Shown here piece by piece: positions 15,248 through 20,176 of a stretch of DNA of 64,000 nt. Origin of the DNA: Escherichia phage vB-Eco-KMB43; the sequence record OR525698.1; one strand, 5' to 3'. The notes beneath the pieces were generated by a model. That model did not search any database, had not been told where the DNA came from, and saw only the letters and a program-made list of their open reading frames with translations. The stretch's first letter is position 1; every line of letters starts with the position of its first letter. The position numbers and the translations under genes are program-made.

Positions 15248-16651
15248 ATGAATAACACTATTAATCACGTAAAAGACGATGCACAGTATGTTAAGTTTGA
15301 CCCTACCGGAAATTGGCCTAGCAATATAAAAAACGTACAAGCGGCATTAGCCGCTATTCAGGGGTTTGCTATTGCAGGTCTTCCAACGGCAACCGAAGAA
15401 ACAGCGGGTATTGCTGAAATTGCTACTCAAAAAGAAGTAGATGATGGGTTGGATGGAACTAAAATTGTTACCCCAAAAACATTGGCTGTTAAGCTGTCAA
15501 GACCGGACGCAACAAAACTTGTCAAAGGGATCACTCGCTATGCTAATAACGATGAAGCTATGGGCGATACTCCAAATATTGCAATTGGTCCTGATACATT
15601 AACCCATGTATTCGAGAAGAAGAAGGCAACGGAAACCGTACAGGGTACAATTAAAATTTGTTCTATGGATGCGGCAAAAATAGGTAGCGATGACACTATG
15701 GCAGTAACGCCTAAAAAGATGCACGCTGCGATTGCTCAGATTGTTCCTGGATTGATCCCAGAGCAAAATACCGCTTCCGAATCCCGTGAGGGTCTAGTTA
15801 GGCTGGCAACAAGCCAACAAACGCTTGCTGGTACTATCAGAGAAGGATTTGCCGTTAGCCCATATGCATTTTCCAACGCAAGAGCCAATGAAAATCAGGC
15901 GGGTACTGTTAAAATTGCGTCATCCCAACAAATGATTGACGGTAATGACAACACAGTAGTAGTATCAGCACAAAAATTTGCGAACACTAAAGCAACCACT
16001 GGACAATTCGGTGTTGTTAAGCTAACAGATAATCCCGGTTCCGGTGAAGCAAATGCTGCGTTATCTGCAAATGCTCGTGTATTGCCTCTAAGCGGTGGTG
16101 TCGTTACTGGTGATGTGTATCGTCATAGTGGAGGTGACGGAAACCAGTTTACCACTAAAAACGAAATGGATGCATGGTGTATGCCAATTGGTGCAATTAT
16201 TCTAACTGCATTCAATAGCAATGATCACGGTGCATTTAAAATTTGTAACGGGCAATGGTTGAATAAACACCAATATCCTACGCTATTTGCTCGCATCGGA
16301 TTTACATATGGTGGTGACGGTGGAGATCATTTCGCTGTTCCAGATATGCGCGGTCTTGTTGCTCGTGGGTGCGATTGGGGAAGAGGTTTAGACCCAGGTC
16401 GTGGATTTGGTACTTATCAAGACGACACCATGCAACATATGACAGGTAACTTCCCTGTAGCTAACCGTTGGCGCGGTTGGACTGGTGGTGCATTTGCTAT
16501 CACAGGTGGTCAATGGAGCACGAACTATAAAAACGGTGGTGGTGATGATTGGGGTAGTATTGTTAACTTTGACAGCGCAAGACAGGTTAGAACGTCTGGC
16601 GAAACTCGCGTTAAAAGCCTTGCATTAAACTACGTTATAAGGGTACAATAA
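15248..16651 (+). CDS. gp12: short tail fibre protein gp12
   Basis: 467 aa; position after gp11; Gly-rich C-terminal region typical of fibre tips. Confidence 0.6.
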   Translation: MNNTINHVKDDAQYVKFDPTGNWPSNIKNVQAALAAIQGFAIAGLPTATEETAGIAEIATQKEVDDGLDGTKIVTPKTLAVKLSRPDATKLVKGITRYANNDEAMGDTPNIAIGPDTLTHVFEKKKATETVQGTIKICSMDAAKIGSDDTMAVTPKKMHAAIAQIVPGLIPEQNTASESREGLVRLATSQQTLAGTIREGFAVSPYAFSNARANENQAGTVKIASSQQMIDGNDNTVVVSAQKFANTKATTGQFGVVKLTDNPGSGEANAALSANARVLPLSGGVVTGDVYRHSGGDGNQFTTKNEMDAWCMPIGAIILTAFNSNDHGAFKICNGQWLNKHQYPTLFARIGFTYGGDGGDHFAVPDMRGLVARGCDWGRGLDPGRGFGTYQDDTMQHMTGNFPVANRWRGWTGGAFAITGGQWSTNYKNGGGDDWGSIVNFDSARQVRTSGETRVKSLALNYVIRVQ

Positions 16652-18420
16652 TGATCGAACAATTAAACATTCGAAAGATCCCTAACGTCGATGGTGTCCC
16701 TGGAGAGGGACAACATTCTATTAGCTGGATTAAAAATGGTGAATGTCTAAGCGCAGCAACCACAGAAACAGGACACGAGGGGACGCTTAACCGCGCCCCT
16801 TATGCGATTCAAGAAAATATTGTTCGTTTGGATGAAAATTCTAAGACAACGGTAACAAAAGTTAACGAAGTTGTTACAGCAGTTAATGATATTAAAACTA
16901 CTTTAGGCGCGGTTGCTGATGGTAGTATTATTGATATTGTCAATCAAACTATTGCAAAGGTTGAGTCTGTAGAAGAAAATTTAGGAGAAACTTCAAGGAC
17001 ATTACAAACCACAGTAGATGAACTGGCGGAGACAGGAAAGAAAATTGGTGTTCGTCCGGCAGCAGATCCGAGTACACGAACAATATATGATGATATTTCT
17101 TTCATCAAACAAGAATTGGGCGCTTTCCCTAACTTCAATATCAACGGTTATCCAGATCCAGGTAGTTCCGGTTCCGGTATCAAATATCGAGTTATCCAGA
17201 ATACGGAAGCATTAAACAACCACGGTCAGCGAATCCGCCAACTAGAAAACGACTGGCAAGATTCTGACGTTGGAGAGCTAACAGAACAAGTTAACAAAAT
17301 GCGAAGCGAGCTAGGAGACACATCACTAGCAACACAGGACAATGTTTATCTTCGTCTTCGCACAAACACTCGCAATATCGCTAGTATATCAAACGAAGTT
17401 CAGGAAGTAAAGAAAGCGATTCTATTTGAATCAATTCCCGATATCGGGACTAAAGTAACTAAGCTACAATCTGATTATACACAGCTTAATGATGAAGTCA
17501 ACGGCTTTGACGCTGGTATCCGTCCTCGTTTAACTCTTCTGGAAAATAAGATCGGCAATCCTCAAGCCGCTGGAAGTATTGATTATCGATTGACCAATCA
17601 AGAACTGGAATTTGTAGATCTTAAATCTATTGTCGGTGTCAGTGGTGCTGATGGCCTACGTGGTGAGGTTGCACGAATCTCTAACACAGTTGGTACTGAC
17701 AGTGAGCGTCATACTATCGCAGGTCGTCTAAAAATTGTAGAAAACACACAGGGACGACTAGAAGCTAGCGTACAGGATATCGAGCAAATGATCGGCGATC
17801 GAGATTCCGGTCTAACCGCCGGGGTTATTAAGCTGTCAAGCGACATGTACGGCAATCCAGAAGGAAGCACGCAGCTTGAACAAGATGGGATCGTGAAAAC
17901 TGTTAAGGAATTGAGCACATCAAATGCAAGCAAGGTAACAGACGTTCCTGATGATGGTTTCCATTATCTACGTAAGCACGGGGAATGGGTTCAGGTCGCA
18001 TGGGCGGCTGGTGCATTTAAAAACACCGCTCAGATTGATATTACTCTCGACGGACAAGATCAATACAAAGGAATCCCGCTAAACGATATGACCGAAGAAG
18101 TTCCTGCGCGTGGAATGGTTAAGAGCGAATCTCTTGTTACGGTTAACGACAAAGGCTTATTCCGTTGTGTTTTCCGTTGTTCTGTAAATGCGGCACATAA
18201 CGCTACTTTCGTAGTCGGTATTGCTAAAAATGGTCAGATTGTACATGAGGTACGACATGGTCATTATGGAACTGATGATTTAATTAGCTATTCTACCAGT
18301 GCTTTCCTAAATATTGAAAAGGGCGACCGGATCGATATTCGCATTAAGGGCGTATCCGAAGAAGCATTAGCGCAACAGCTACAAATTAAAGAGTTCCTCT
18401 TTGGGATTTCTCCGGTATAA
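16651..18420 (+). CDS. wac: fibritin (whisker) Wac-like with C-terminal extension
   Basis: 589 aa; coiled-coil-like segmented sequence; foldon-like segment DGFHYLRKHGEWVQV followed by ~150 extra residues. Confidence 0.55.
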   Translation: MIEQLNIRKIPNVDGVPGEGQHSISWIKNGECLSAATTETGHEGTLNRAPYAIQENIVRLDENSKTTVTKVNEVVTAVNDIKTTLGAVADGSIIDIVNQTIAKVESVEENLGETSRTLQTTVDELAETGKKIGVRPAADPSTRTIYDDISFIKQELGAFPNFNINGYPDPGSSGSGIKYRVIQNTEALNNHGQRIRQLENDWQDSDVGELTEQVNKMRSELGDTSLATQDNVYLRLRTNTRNIASISNEVQEVKKAILFESIPDIGTKVTKLQSDYTQLNDEVNGFDAGIRPRLTLLENKIGNPQAAGSIDYRLTNQELEFVDLKSIVGVSGADGLRGEVARISNTVGTDSERHTIAGRLKIVENTQGRLEASVQDIEQMIGDRDSGLTAGVIKLSSDMYGNPEGSTQLEQDGIVKTVKELSTSNASKVTDVPDDGFHYLRKHGEWVQVAWAAGAFKNTAQIDITLDGQDQYKGIPLNDMTEEVPARGMVKSESLVTVNDKGLFRCVFRCSVNAAHNATFVVGIAKNGQIVHEVRHGHYGTDDLISYSTSAFLNIEKGDRIDIRIKGVSEEALAQQLQIKEFLFGISPV

Positions 18421-18426
18421 GAAATT

Positions 18427-18449
18427 AAAGGGGCGTTAAGCCCCTTTTC
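18427..18449 (+). terminator. hairpin terminator after wac
   Basis: GGGGCGTTAAGCCCC palindrome followed by TTTTCC. Confidence 0.5.
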
Positions 18450-18466
18450 CGTTTATAGGTGATATT

Positions 18467-19399
18467 ATGTCAGGATATGTAACCAATAACCCAAGAGAAT
18501 TAAAAGACGCTATTCTGCGTCGTTTAGGCGCACCAGTAATTAACGTAGAAGTCACAGAAGACCAGATTTACGATTGTATTCAGAGAGCACTAGAACTCTA
18601 TGGGGAATATCATTTCGATGGTGTGAATAAAGGATATAAAGTATTTCGTGTTAGTGCAGAGCAAGCGCAACACGGGGTATTTGATTTAAGCGATTCTGGA
18701 GTATTCGCAGTAACTAAAATAATTCGAACAAACGTAGGTAGCGCGGCTACGATGGATGGCACTGCCGTTTATCCGTGGTTTACTGACTTTCTGTTGGGTT
18801 TAGCGGGTGTAAATGGCGGTTTAGGATCTGGCTGTAGTAAATTTTATGGTCCAAATGCAATGGGTGGTGATCTAGGATATTTCGAACAGCTTATGAGCTA
18901 TCGAGCCACTATGCAAAATATGCTCAATCCGCTGCCAGACTATTGGTATAATAGCGCAAACGGACAACTTAAGATTACAGGAAACTTCCGAGAAGGTGAT
19001 CTCATTGTTGTTGAATTATATGTTAAAAGCTATATAGACGTTCCTGACATGATCGGCGCGGTTGCTGGTTATGCTCATGCAGGAGGATGTTCTACCGCTG
19101 GCGGGATTAGCGCCGTTTATGATAATCCAACTGCTGGTTTAAGCGGGATTGTTGCTGGAATGGGACCGATCCGTGATAACAAGCAGGGCGCATATAATAA
19201 CCGTTGGGTTAAAGACATGGCAACCGCTTTCACTAAGGAGGTGTGGGGGTCCATCATGGCTAAACATCAAGGTCTGCAATTACCCGGCGGTGTCACTGTT
19301 GATGGTATCCGAATCATTGAAGAAGCACGCGCCGACATTGAGAAATTGCGACAAGAACTAGAATTATTAGATCCTCCGTTCGGCATCCTCATGATTTGA
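18467..19399 (+). CDS. gp13: neck protein gp13
   Basis: 310 aa; size and position match T4 gp13 (309 aa). Confidence 0.65.
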
Positions 19400-19405
19400 T
19401 TTATT

Positions 19406-19421
19406 GGGGGAGTATTCCCCC
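19406..19421 (+). other. stem-loop between genes 13 and 14
   Basis: GGGGGAGTATTCCCCC palindrome; weak T tract. Confidence 0.35.
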
Positions 19422-19435
19422 ATTTGGAGTAACAT

Positions 19436-20176
19436 ATGTTTAACAACACTCTTTTTGCTCGCCTTGAATCGCAGAAGGACTACGAGAATACACGACAAAC
19501 AGAGATTCTTAATCCTTATGTGAACTTTCACAAATATACAAATACTCAGACGTTAGCCGACGTTATGGTCGCCGAAGCTATTCAGATGCGAGGTGTAGAA
19601 TTATATTACATCCCTCGTGAATTTGTCAAACCAGATATGATCTTTGGTGAGGATGTTCAAAGCAAATTTACTAAAGCATGGAAATTTGCGGCTTATATTA
19701 ACTCATTTGATGGGTATGAAGGAGCGGGTAATTTCTTCTCTAGTTTCGGGTATCAAGCTAATGATGAACTAACTTTTACGGTTAACCCCAACCTATTCAA
19801 GCATCAAGTAGATGATCAAGAGCCAAAATCAGGTGACTTAATTTATATTCCTATGAGCAATGATTTATTTGAAATCTCATATGTAGAGCCATATCAGCCG
19901 TTTTTTCAGGCTGGCAAAAATGCCATGCGTAAAATTATTGCAGAGAAATTCGTGTATAGCGGTGAGGAATTGCGACCAGAATTACAACGCAATGAGGGAA
20001 TTAATGTTGATGAGTTTGCGGATCTGGATCTTGCACCGATCACTAATCTGGACGGGTTAACAGATATCAACTTAGATCAGTACAAAGAAGATAAGCAATT
20101 CAGAAGCGAAGGACAAGATTTTATTGATCCGTTTGATCCTATTAATGGCAAGGGTTCACCTTTCGCCGATTTTTGA
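19436..20176 (+). CDS. gp14: neck protein gp14
   Basis: 246 aa; synteny. Confidence 0.65.

What the first reader, a model, noticed from the sequence alone, without database searches (positions are those of the whole stretch)
16651..18420. Fibritin with a ~150-residue extension beyond the foldon-like segment
The Wac-like ORF is 589 aa versus 487 in T4. A foldon-like segment (DGFHYLRKHGEWVQV) is followed by an extra domain rich in beta-type residues (…FRCVFRCSVNAAHNATFVVGIAKNGQIVHEV…). This could be a receptor-binding or environment-sensing tip added to the whiskers.
Basis: partly seen in the sequence, partly recalled or inferred. Interest (0 to 1): 0.4.

Follow-up and report, generated by a model that had tools for sequence, protein, structure and literature searches.

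The report
RB49-type fibritin with C1q-like head
This is the ordinary neck-whisker gene of an RB49/JSE-like coliphage: its extra C-terminal 137 residues are real, follow a retained foldon motif, and are predicted to fold as a C1q/TNF-like knob, but this long form of fibritin has been known since 2005.

Summary
ORF 16651-18420 (+) encodes a 589-aa fibritin between gene 12 and gene 13 of a Krischvirus; it is 99.8% identical to phage FL04, 98.4% to JSE, and the same length as RB49 wac. The segment DGFHYLRKHGEWVQV (aa 435-449) is homologous to the T4 foldon: on its own it passes Pfam's Fibritin_C threshold. It is also the most conserved part of the protein. The 137 residues after it (aa 453-589) are not an artefact. 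They are present and intact in all 57 Krischvirus genomes, in two Serratia phages and in metagenomic relatives, and they are under purifying selection.

The most likely role is a trimeric distal knob that, with the foldon hairpin, nucleates folding of the fibre and docks the long tail fibre. A host-binding adhesin role is not excluded, but the absence of hypervariable loops argues against it.

The "RB49-type" fibritin C-terminal module is already in the literature. Only the fold assignment and the retained foldon seem undescribed. Interest is low to moderate.

The parts
16651..18420 (+). wac (fibritin, neck whisker) ORF, 589 aa plus stop codon
   Evidence: ORF listing. PHROG 1056 'fibritin neck whisker' E 1e-180 covering aa 1-581. 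T4 fibritin in the PDB, E 5.7e-52. 98.4% nt identity to the annotated JSE wac.
16651..16800 (+). N-terminal neck/collar-attachment domain (aa 1-50)
   Evidence: Aligns to T4 fibritin from residue 6. tblastn with aa 1-63 finds 1452 T4-like phage records, shown rows annotated fibritin/whisker. Short beta strands at aa 4-8 and 23-28 in the full-length model, at low confidence.
16801..17940 (+). Segmented alpha-helical shaft (aa 51-430), homologous to the T4 fibritin coiled coil
   Evidence: phmmer alignment of aa 7-431 to T4 residues 6-436. Pfam Fibritin_C from aa 368. The monomer AF2 model shows about 14 helices at aa 51-424 separated by loops, at low pLDDT as expected for one chain of a trimer.
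17941..18006 (+). Foldon-homologous beta-hairpin segment (aa 431-452, DVPDDGFHYLRKHGEWVQVAWA), internal rather than terminal
   Evidence: The 34-aa piece alone matches Pfam Fibritin_C positions 65-91/93, E 3.6e-6, 27.5 bits against a cut-off of 21. 10 of 17 positions are identical to the T4 foldon without gaps. It is the most conserved region of the family: 77-100% identity where overall identity falls to 51%; dN/dS 0.04. Hairpin strands at aa 440-442 and 445-447 in the full-length model, low pLDDT.
18007..18417 (+). C1q/TNF-like (BclA_C-like) jelly-roll head domain (aa 453-589)
18427..18447 (.). GC-rich hairpin (AAAGGGGCgttaaGCCCCTTT) with flanking T/A runs, just after the wac stop and before gene 13
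   Evidence: Sequence read. Reported by the terminator-like scan. A terminator is annotated at the equivalent position after wac in Klebsiella phage Miro.
15248..16651 (+). Context: gene 12 (short tail fibre), immediately upstream, its stop overlapping the wac start
18467..19399 (+). Context: gene 13 (head-tail adaptor/neck protein), immediately downstream

Best explanation
The ORF is the RB49-type fibritin (gpwac) of a Krischvirus. It has four parts: a conserved N-terminal neck-attachment domain, a segmented alpha-helical coiled-coil shaft homologous to T4's, a retained foldon-type beta-hairpin (aa 431-452), and, 3-4 residues later, a 137-residue C1q/TNF-like jelly-roll head (aa 453-589). Proposed mechanism: three heads associate around the fibre axis, as C1q/TNF/BclA heads do, and together with the foldon hairpins form the C-terminal trimerisation and registration nucleus from which the coiled coil zips up. 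On the virion the head is the distal knob of each of the six whiskers. It is the surface that captures the long tail fibre near its knee during assembly and holds it retracted under unfavourable conditions. That is the job done by the C-terminal end of T4 fibritin, here with a larger interface matched to the much larger gp36 of these phages. Shown here: gene identity, domain architecture, foldon homology, the fold of the head, its conservation and purifying selection. Inferred: the trimeric state of the head, its role in folding (rests on published biochemistry) and tail-fibre docking.
For: Identity and architecture. Foldon homology: above Pfam's cut-off on its own; most conserved region; dN/dS 0.04. 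By alignment, the positions matching the T4 foldon trimer contacts are kept: D431 for Glu461, then Y439, R441 and W446 for Tyr469, Arg471 and Trp476. The roles of those T4 residues are from my own knowledge of the foldon structures. Head fold. Every high-scoring structural neighbour is an obligate trimer sitting on a trimeric stalk, which fits a domain fused to a trimeric coiled coil. Folding role: Letarov and Krisch 2013 (PMC3797505) report that RB49 fibritin, unlike T4 and JS98, cannot trimerise with a small foldon motif alone and needs its expanded C-terminal domain. Tail-fibre docking: the same paper states that the T4 C-terminal moiety contacts the fibre near the knee. Krischvirus gp36 is 496 aa against 221 in T4 (length from my own knowledge), with the Pfam gp36 domain only at aa 57-153. 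The long gp36 and the headed 591-aa fibritin co-occur again in Serratia phage 92A1. Several loops and strand stretches of the head are nearly invariant (HNATF 516-520, GHYGTD 537-542, SYSTSAFLNI 546-555), as expected for a conserved phage partner rather than variable host glycans.
Against: No multimer model could be run, so the trimer and any interface are untested. The foldon region has low pLDDT in both monomer models. Within the genus there is no co-variation between the head and gp36: the JSE and RB49 heads are 77% identical while their gp36 proteins are 95% identical. The long-gp36/headed-fibritin association rests on only two, possibly sister, lineages. Golomidova et al. [quoted passage not shown] The 2005 paper that reports gpwac/gp36 covariance could not be read and is cited from memory only.
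Confidence: 0.55

Rival explanations
1. Accessory adhesin or lectin. The C1q/TNF-like head binds a host-surface or environmental glycan (LPS/O-antigen, capsule, mucus), so that the whiskers give weak, reversible pre-adsorption and bring the tail fibres near the cell.
For: The fold is shared with phage receptor-binding heads and lectins: cyanophage A4 tail fibre and A-1(L) short tail fibre CBD, TM4 gp23, lactococcal phage 1358 RBP bound to GlcNAc, PRD1 P5, a Photorhabdus TNF-like lectin, BclA, and many phage tail-fibre and collagen-like proteins in BFVD. Letarov and Krisch proposed an adhesin-like role for other fibritin C-terminal variants. The head exists as two allelic types (JSE-like and RB49-like, 77-78% identity), and ECD7 carries a JSE-type head on an RB49-type shaft, a mosaic pattern typical of host-range modules.
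Against: There are no hypervariable loops: JSE versus RB49 differences are spread over strands (17 of 89) and loops (13 of 48). The head diverges at the same rate as the shaft, with dN/dS 0.17. The same head type occurs across phages isolated on many different E. coli and Shigella hosts. The ECD7 junction lies inside the head, not at a module boundary. The distal carbohydrate-binding module on the neck fibre of cyanophage A-1(L) showed no host binding (PMC10966104).
Confidence: 0.2
2. A purely structural cap. The head serves only as a stable trimerisation and folding nucleus and protease-resistant end-cap for the fibre, with no ligand. Whisker function, if any, resides elsewhere.
For: Published biochemistry says that the expanded C-terminal domain is needed for folding of RB49 fibritin. 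C1q/TNF/BclA heads are very stable trimers that nucleate collagen-like stalks (established knowledge of those families). The head evolves at a moderate rate, comparable to the shaft.
Against: A 22-residue foldon-type motif under the strongest constraint in the protein is retained next to it, which makes a 137-residue domain redundant if only trimerisation were needed. Nearly invariant surface-loop motifs (HNAT, GHYGTD) across members down to about 50% identity suggest a conserved interaction. The loop positions come from the predicted secondary structure only.
Confidence: 0.15
3. Artefact: the extension results from a frameshift, a read-through or the fusion of two genes.
For: None found. The only oddity was two 110-aa database 'proteins' matching the head alone.
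Against: The checked 110-aa entry (P0002) is a fragment created by a run of N inside wac in a scaffold; P0001 (927-nt contig) was not examined. The intact 589-aa frame is present in 57 of 57 Krischvirus genomes and in RefSeq annotations. The region is under purifying selection and gives a confident fold.
Confidence: 0.01

Closest known systems
RB49-type fibritin (gpwac of phages RB49, Phi1, JSE; Letarov et al. 2005; Letarov and Krisch 2013)
   Same: Same gene, same length (589 aa), same position between genes 12 and 13. It is 98% identical to JSE wac at the nucleotide level (about 98% in protein by region); against RB49 wac the protein regions are 77-91% identical, with the head at 78%. The literature already lists it as one of eight C-terminal fibritin types with an expanded C-terminal domain needed for folding.
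   Different: Nothing material in the sequence. What this analysis adds is annotation. The C-terminal moiety is described in the literature as 'unrelated to that of T4 Wac', whereas a foldon-homologous hairpin is in fact retained and the added domain has a C1q/TNF-like fold. I found no paper in the library stating this.
T4 fibritin (gpwac, 487 aa; PDB 2bsg, 1aa0, 1rfo foldon)
   Same: N-terminal domain and coiled-coil shaft align over aa 7-431 (E 5.7e-52). The foldon hairpin shares 10 of 17 residues, including the Tyr, Arg and Trp of the trimer core.
   Different: In T4 the foldon is the C-terminus and is sufficient for trimerisation. Here its last residues (LSTFL) are replaced by a short linker into a 137-aa head. 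The shaft is about 25 aa shorter.
BclA C-terminal domain and ExsFA/BxpB of Bacillus exosporium; gC1q heads (C1q, C1QL, cerebellin, Caprin-2, adiponectin); TNF ligands (EDA-A1 and others)
   Different: Sequence identity is only 9-18%, and no member reaches the Pfam gathering score (best 27.9 bits against 38). The stalk is an alpha-helical coiled coil plus foldon, not a collagen triple helix. Ligands are unknown.
Phage fibre or spike knobs with a TNF/C1q-like fold (PRD1 P5, cyanophage A4 and A-1(L) tail-fibre domains, TM4 gp23 RBD, lactococcal phage 1358 RBP head, Sf6 needle knob)
   Different: Those sit on tail fibres, spikes or vertices that contact the host. This one sits on the neck whiskers, whose known partner in T4 is the phage's own long tail fibre.

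Membership tests
Fibritin / gpwac of T4-like phages | Conserved N-terminal domain of about 50 aa that attaches to the neck | tested here: met
   Aligned to T4 fibritin from residue 6. tblastn of aa 1-63 hits 1452 T4-like records, shown rows annotated fibritin/whisker.
Fibritin / gpwac of T4-like phages | Long segmented alpha-helical coiled-coil shaft | tested here: met
   Homology to the T4 shaft over aa 7-431, E 5.7e-52. About 14 helical segments at aa 51-424 in the AF2 monomer model, low confidence. Heptad periodicity was not analysed separately.
Fibritin / gpwac of T4-like phages | Gene located between gene 12 (short tail fibre) and gene 13 (neck) | tested here: met
Fibritin / gpwac of T4-like phages | Homotrimeric fibre on the virion collar | not testable with these tools
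   Only monomer prediction was available. Trimerisation of RB49 fibritin is reported in the literature.
T4-type foldon | Sequence match to the foldon part of Pfam Fibritin_C | tested here: met
   The 34-aa segment alone gives E 3.6e-6 and 27.5 bits against a cut-off of 21, profile positions 65-91/93.
T4-type foldon | Located at the extreme C-terminus and sufficient for trimerisation | tested here: not met
   It is followed by 137 more residues. Published biochemistry says RB49 fibritin needs the expanded C-terminal domain. Sufficiency was not tested here.
RB49-type fibritin (Letarov and Krisch 2013) | C-terminal module homologous to that of RB49 wac | tested here: met
   Head 78% identical to the RB49 head, with the same 589-aa length.
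C1q/TNF-like superfamily (including BclA_C) | Compact jelly-roll beta-sandwich of about 10 strands with C1q/TNF topology | tested here: met
C1q/TNF-like superfamily (including BclA_C) | Sequence membership of Pfam C1q (PF00386) or BclA_C (PF18573) at the gathering threshold | tested here: not met
   Window protein: BclA_C 15.9 bits (cut-off 38) and C1q 14.0 bits (cut-off 23.7). Best family member: 27.9 bits, E 2.4e-6. 11 of 13 and 9 of 13 members give sub-threshold hits. hhalign against the adiponectin gC1q domain is not significant. A profile search of PDB sequences found nothing.
C1q/TNF-like superfamily (including BclA_C) | Homotrimer with N- and C-termini at the base, next to the stalk | not testable with these tools
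   No multimer prediction and no coordinates were available. Inferred from fusion to a trimeric coiled coil and from the first and last strands of the domain being its termini.
Phage receptor-binding domain | Binds a host surface receptor; usually has hypervariable distal loops that track host range | tested here: inconclusive
   Binding is not testable here. Variation is not concentrated in loops, the rate equals that of the shaft, and dN/dS is 0.17. However, two head alleles and one recombinant (ECD7) exist.

The most novel reading that the evidence does not exclude
The six neck whiskers of Krischvirus (and of Serratia phage 92A1-like viruses) end in C1q-like lectin heads that bind a bacterial or gut-surface glycan. 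This would make the collar a third adhesion organelle besides the long and short tail fibres, with exchange of head alleles between lineages (as in ECD7) reflecting adaptation to different surfaces.
Probability: 0.15. Interest if true: 0.55.

Novelty: already known. Interest (0 to 1): 0.25.

Why it matters
Fibritin controls when a T4-like phage deploys its tail fibres, and its foldon is widely used as an engineering tag. If the RB49-type whisker keeps a foldon hairpin and adds a C1q-like knob, that gives a concrete structural hypothesis for two things. One is why RB49 fibritin needs its large C-terminus to fold. The other is what surface might contact the enlarged gp36 knee of the tail fibre. 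It also corrects the common statement that the RB49 C-terminus is unrelated to T4's. This is an annotation-level refinement of a known protein family, not a new system.

Tried and rejected
1. A word-indexed search with the head alone, and then with a head profile, returned only two 110-aa entries. The one examined (P0002) is a wac fragment produced by a run of N in a scaffold, not a free-standing head gene.

2. The exhaustive phmmer search of 1.84 billion representatives with aa 432-589 found only three real relatives, all fibritins of about 590 aa, plus one junk repeat protein, P0022. No donor family for the head could be identified by sequence.

3. A head profile against PDB sequences found nothing. 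hhalign against the adiponectin gC1q domain was not significant, although the aligned strands are the equivalent ones.

4. The precomputed Pfam tag PF28231 on close homologues turned out to be a faint STB2_C hit and is irrelevant.

5. I tested co-variation of the head with gp36 inside the genus and found no signal: gp36 is 88-100% conserved regardless of head type.

6. I considered that C1q-like heads might be separate small ORFs next to wac in other T4-like genera, prompted by BFVD hits to a 159-aa KPV15 protein and a 141-aa Morganella MP1 'fibritin'. Klebsiella phage Miro has no such ORF beside wac, and I did not pursue this further.

7. The afdb50 fold library was unavailable.

8. Letarov et al. 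2005 could not be read.

9. One literature query (whiskers/Wac/TNF-like) returned only irrelevant papers.
Full report
**Observation**

The ORF exists exactly as stated: window 16651-18420, + strand, 589 aa. Its ATG overlaps the stop codon of the upstream gene by one base (caaTAATGatc). The neighbouring ORFs are in T4 order: gp10, gp11, gp12, this ORF, gp13, gp14, gp15.

T4 fibritin chains in the PDB are 486-487 aa. After the quoted foldon-like string there are 140 residues, not about 150. The net excess of 102 aa arises because the shaft is about 25 aa shorter than in T4.

**What phage and what gene**

The 1770-nt gene is 99.8% identical to Escherichia phages FL04 and LF73P4, 98.4% to JSE, and 76-80% to the ECD7/GEC-3S group. 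All 57 matching records are Krischvirus or Krischvirus-like phages and cover the full length. In the JSE, ECD7 and RB49 RefSeq records the same 1770-nt ORF is annotated as wac, fibritin neck whisker.

PHROG 1056 'fibritin neck whisker' matches aa 1-581 (E 1e-180). T4 fibritin matches aa 7-431 (E 5.7e-52). Pfam Fibritin_C matches aa 368-450 (E 1e-24).

Seventeen database homologues of 30-95% identity are all 587-589 aa and all carry the C-terminal region. The extension is therefore not a frameshift, fusion or annotation artefact. The only apparently free-standing copies of the head were two 110-aa entries; the one examined (P0002) is a fragment made by a run of N inside wac in a scaffold.

**The foldon-like segment**

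A 34-aa piece (TSNASKVTDVPDDGFHYLRKHGEWVQVAWAAGAF) on its own matches the last third of Pfam Fibritin_C, positions 65-91 of 93. The E-value is 3.6e-6 and the score 27.5 bits, above the curated cut-off of 21.

Against T4 (APRDGQAYVRKDGEWVLL) it shares 10 of 17 residues without gaps. From my own knowledge of the foldon structures, the trimer is held by Trp476, the Glu461-Arg471 salt bridge and Tyr469-Arg471 backbone bonds. The aligned residues here are W446, D431/R441 and Y439/R441. These residues are invariant or nearly invariant in the family.

This segment is the most conserved part of the protein. It stays 77-100% identical in homologues whose overall identity falls to 51%, and its dN/dS is 0.04. 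More distant relatives keep a recognisable form:

- P0020 has PNDDFYYVRNHANWIQV.
- Serratia phage 92A1, the same sequence as P0021, has PDDQFYYVRQGDRWVQI.

The segment is therefore homologous to the foldon. The statement in the literature that the RB49 Wac C-terminal moiety is unrelated to that of T4 (PMC9569957) applies to the added domain, not to this hairpin.

**The extension**

Residues 453-589 gave only sub-threshold Pfam hits:

- BclA_C, E 0.012, and C1q, E 0.059, for the window protein.
- BclA_C, E 2.4e-6 and 27.9 bits, for the 51%-identical homologue P0018. This is still below the gathering score of 38.
- Across 13 family members, 11 hit BclA_C and 9 hit C1q.

An AlphaFold2 model of aa 420-589, built on an 18-sequence alignment, has mean pLDDT 83 and pTM 0.74. 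The values are about 90 or higher throughout aa 450-589, with ten beta strands.

Foldseek against the PDB gave the same families at probability 1.00. Against predicted viral structures it gave 484 hits with E<=1e-3, many of them collagen-repeat/C1q proteins and tail fibres.

The fold assignment is therefore robust for a predicted structure. Sequence-level membership of the Pfam C1q or BclA_C families is not met. A head profile found nothing among PDB sequences, and hhalign to adiponectin gC1q was not significant, although it aligned the equivalent D-E-F-G strands.

The full-length monomer model is poor overall (pLDDT 60), as expected for one chain of a trimeric fibre. It still shows the expected layout: short N-terminal strands, about 14 helices from aa 51 to 424 separated by loops, a hairpin at aa 440-447, and then the confident head.

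**Distribution and evolution**

- Of 1452 phage records with a fibritin N-terminal domain, only the 57 Krischvirus records have this head at the tblastn level.
- Using the divergent P0020 head as a stepping stone adds two Serratia phages, 92A1 and 4S. The 92A1 fibritin is 591 aa.
- An exhaustive phmmer scan of 1.84 billion representative proteins found only three real relatives, all fibritins of 589-591 aa. A 30%-identical member (P0019) sits in the same gp12/gp13 context on a T4-like contig.
- The head diverges at about the same rate as the shaft.
- Differences between JSE-type and RB49-type heads (77-78% identity) are spread over strands (17 of 89) and loops (13 of 48). dN/dS is 0.17.
- Some predicted loops and strands are nearly invariant: HNATF, GHYGTD and SYSTSAFLNI.
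- ECD7 is a recombinant. Its residues 1-474 are 98-100% RB49-like. From about residue 481 to the end, the sequence is 99% JSE-like at the nucleotide level. The junction lies at about window 18073-18094, inside the head.

**How it probably works**

Published work (PMC3797505) lists the RB49 type as one of eight fibritin C-terminal forms. It states that only T4 and JS98 fibritins fold with the small foldon alone. RB49 fibritin needs sequences in its expanded C-terminal domain. In T4 the C-terminal moiety contacts the long tail fibre near its knee.

All close structural neighbours of the head are obligate trimers mounted on trimeric stalks. The head begins 3-4 residues after the foldon hairpin. 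I therefore infer that head plus hairpin form the C-terminal trimerisation and registration nucleus, and the distal knob of each whisker.

The most likely partner is the phage's own long tail fibre:

- Krischvirus gp36 is 496 aa against 221 in T4 (the T4 length is from my own knowledge). Its Pfam gp36 domain covers only aa 57-153.
- The long gp36 recurs in Serratia phage 92A1, which also has the headed fibritin.
- This agrees with my recollection of the abstract of Letarov et al. 2005, that novel gpwac C-termini go with novel gp36 C-termini. I could not read that paper.

Against this, the head and gp36 do not co-vary within the genus. gp36 is 95% identical between JSE and RB49, while the heads are 77% identical. 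The association across genera rests on two lineages only.

The adhesin reading remains possible, because the fold is a common receptor-binding knob and head alleles recombine. However, the variation pattern is not that of an adhesin tip. A distal carbohydrate-binding module on the neck fibre of another myophage showed no host binding (PMC10966104).

**Comparison with the known, and novelty**

The gene is a member of the fibritin family and specifically of the RB49 type. Both are described in the literature, and the window's allele is nearly identical to annotated genes. In the searchable library I found no statement that the RB49-type module is C1q/TNF-like or that it retains a foldon hairpin. 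Those two points are small annotation-level additions.

C1q/TNF-like knobs are widespread on phage fibres, so a specialist would not be surprised. I rate the finding as already known, with interest 0.25.

**Limits**

- No multimer modelling and no model coordinates were available.
- The afdb50 fold library was unavailable.
- Apex and base loop assignments are inferred from secondary structure only.
- dS between the JSE and RB49 types is near saturation outside the head, so dN/dS values are rough.

Noticed in passing
window 18073-18420 (compare L006 and L007): The wac gene of phage ECD7 is a recombinant. Residues 1-474 are 98-100% RB49-like, and residues from about 481 to 589 are 99% (nt) JSE/window-like. 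The left junction lies inside the C1q-like head rather than at the domain boundary. The right junction cannot be placed because the first half of gene 13 is at least 95% identical in all lineages.
   Followed up: partly
window 16086-16385: Nucleotide identity between the window and JSE drops from 95-100% to 74-81% in the C-terminal part of gene 12 (short tail fibre). This suggests a different receptor-binding allele of gp12 in this phage.
   Followed up: no
window 18427-18447: A GC-rich hairpin (AAAGGGGCgttaaGCCCCTTT) flanked by A and T runs sits in the 46-nt gap between wac and gene 13. It is terminator-like on either strand. There is no TATAAATA late-promoter motif between 11910 and 23363, so wac is probably co-transcribed with the upstream baseplate genes.
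   Followed up: partly
window 19399-20176; L002 9567-10322; L006 5816-6400: JSE carries a homing-endonuclease ORF between genes 14 and 15, and ECD7 carries segC between genes 13 and 14. The window has neither: gene 14 overlaps gene 15 directly.
   Followed up: no
L003 18548-20038 (JSE gp36): Krischvirus gp36 (the long tail fibre knee protein) is 496 aa, more than twice the size of T4 gp36, and only aa 57-153 match the Pfam gp36 domain. About 340 C-terminal residues have no family assignment. It is 88-100% conserved in the genus and about 30% identical to a long gp36 in Serratia phages 92A1 and WSPA.
   Followed up: partly
L004 3829-3928: Two 110-aa 'proteins' (P0001, P0002) match the head alone; P0002 is a gene-calling artefact of a 100-N gap inside wac in a metagenome scaffold, and P0001 (927-nt contig) was not examined.
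   Followed up: yes
L001 6565-7991: On the contig carrying the most divergent headed fibritin (P0019, 30% identity), the gene-12 position holds a 402-aa ORF with no Pfam hit, followed by an extra 72-aa ORF before wac.
   Followed up: no
BFVD hits: A 159-aa uncharacterised protein of Klebsiella phage KPV15 and a 141-aa 'fibritin neck whiskers' protein of Morganella phage MP1 have the same C1q-like fold (TM 0.75-0.78 on the target). The related Klebsiella phage Miro has no such ORF next to wac, so where these proteins sit and what they do was not resolved.
   Followed up: partly
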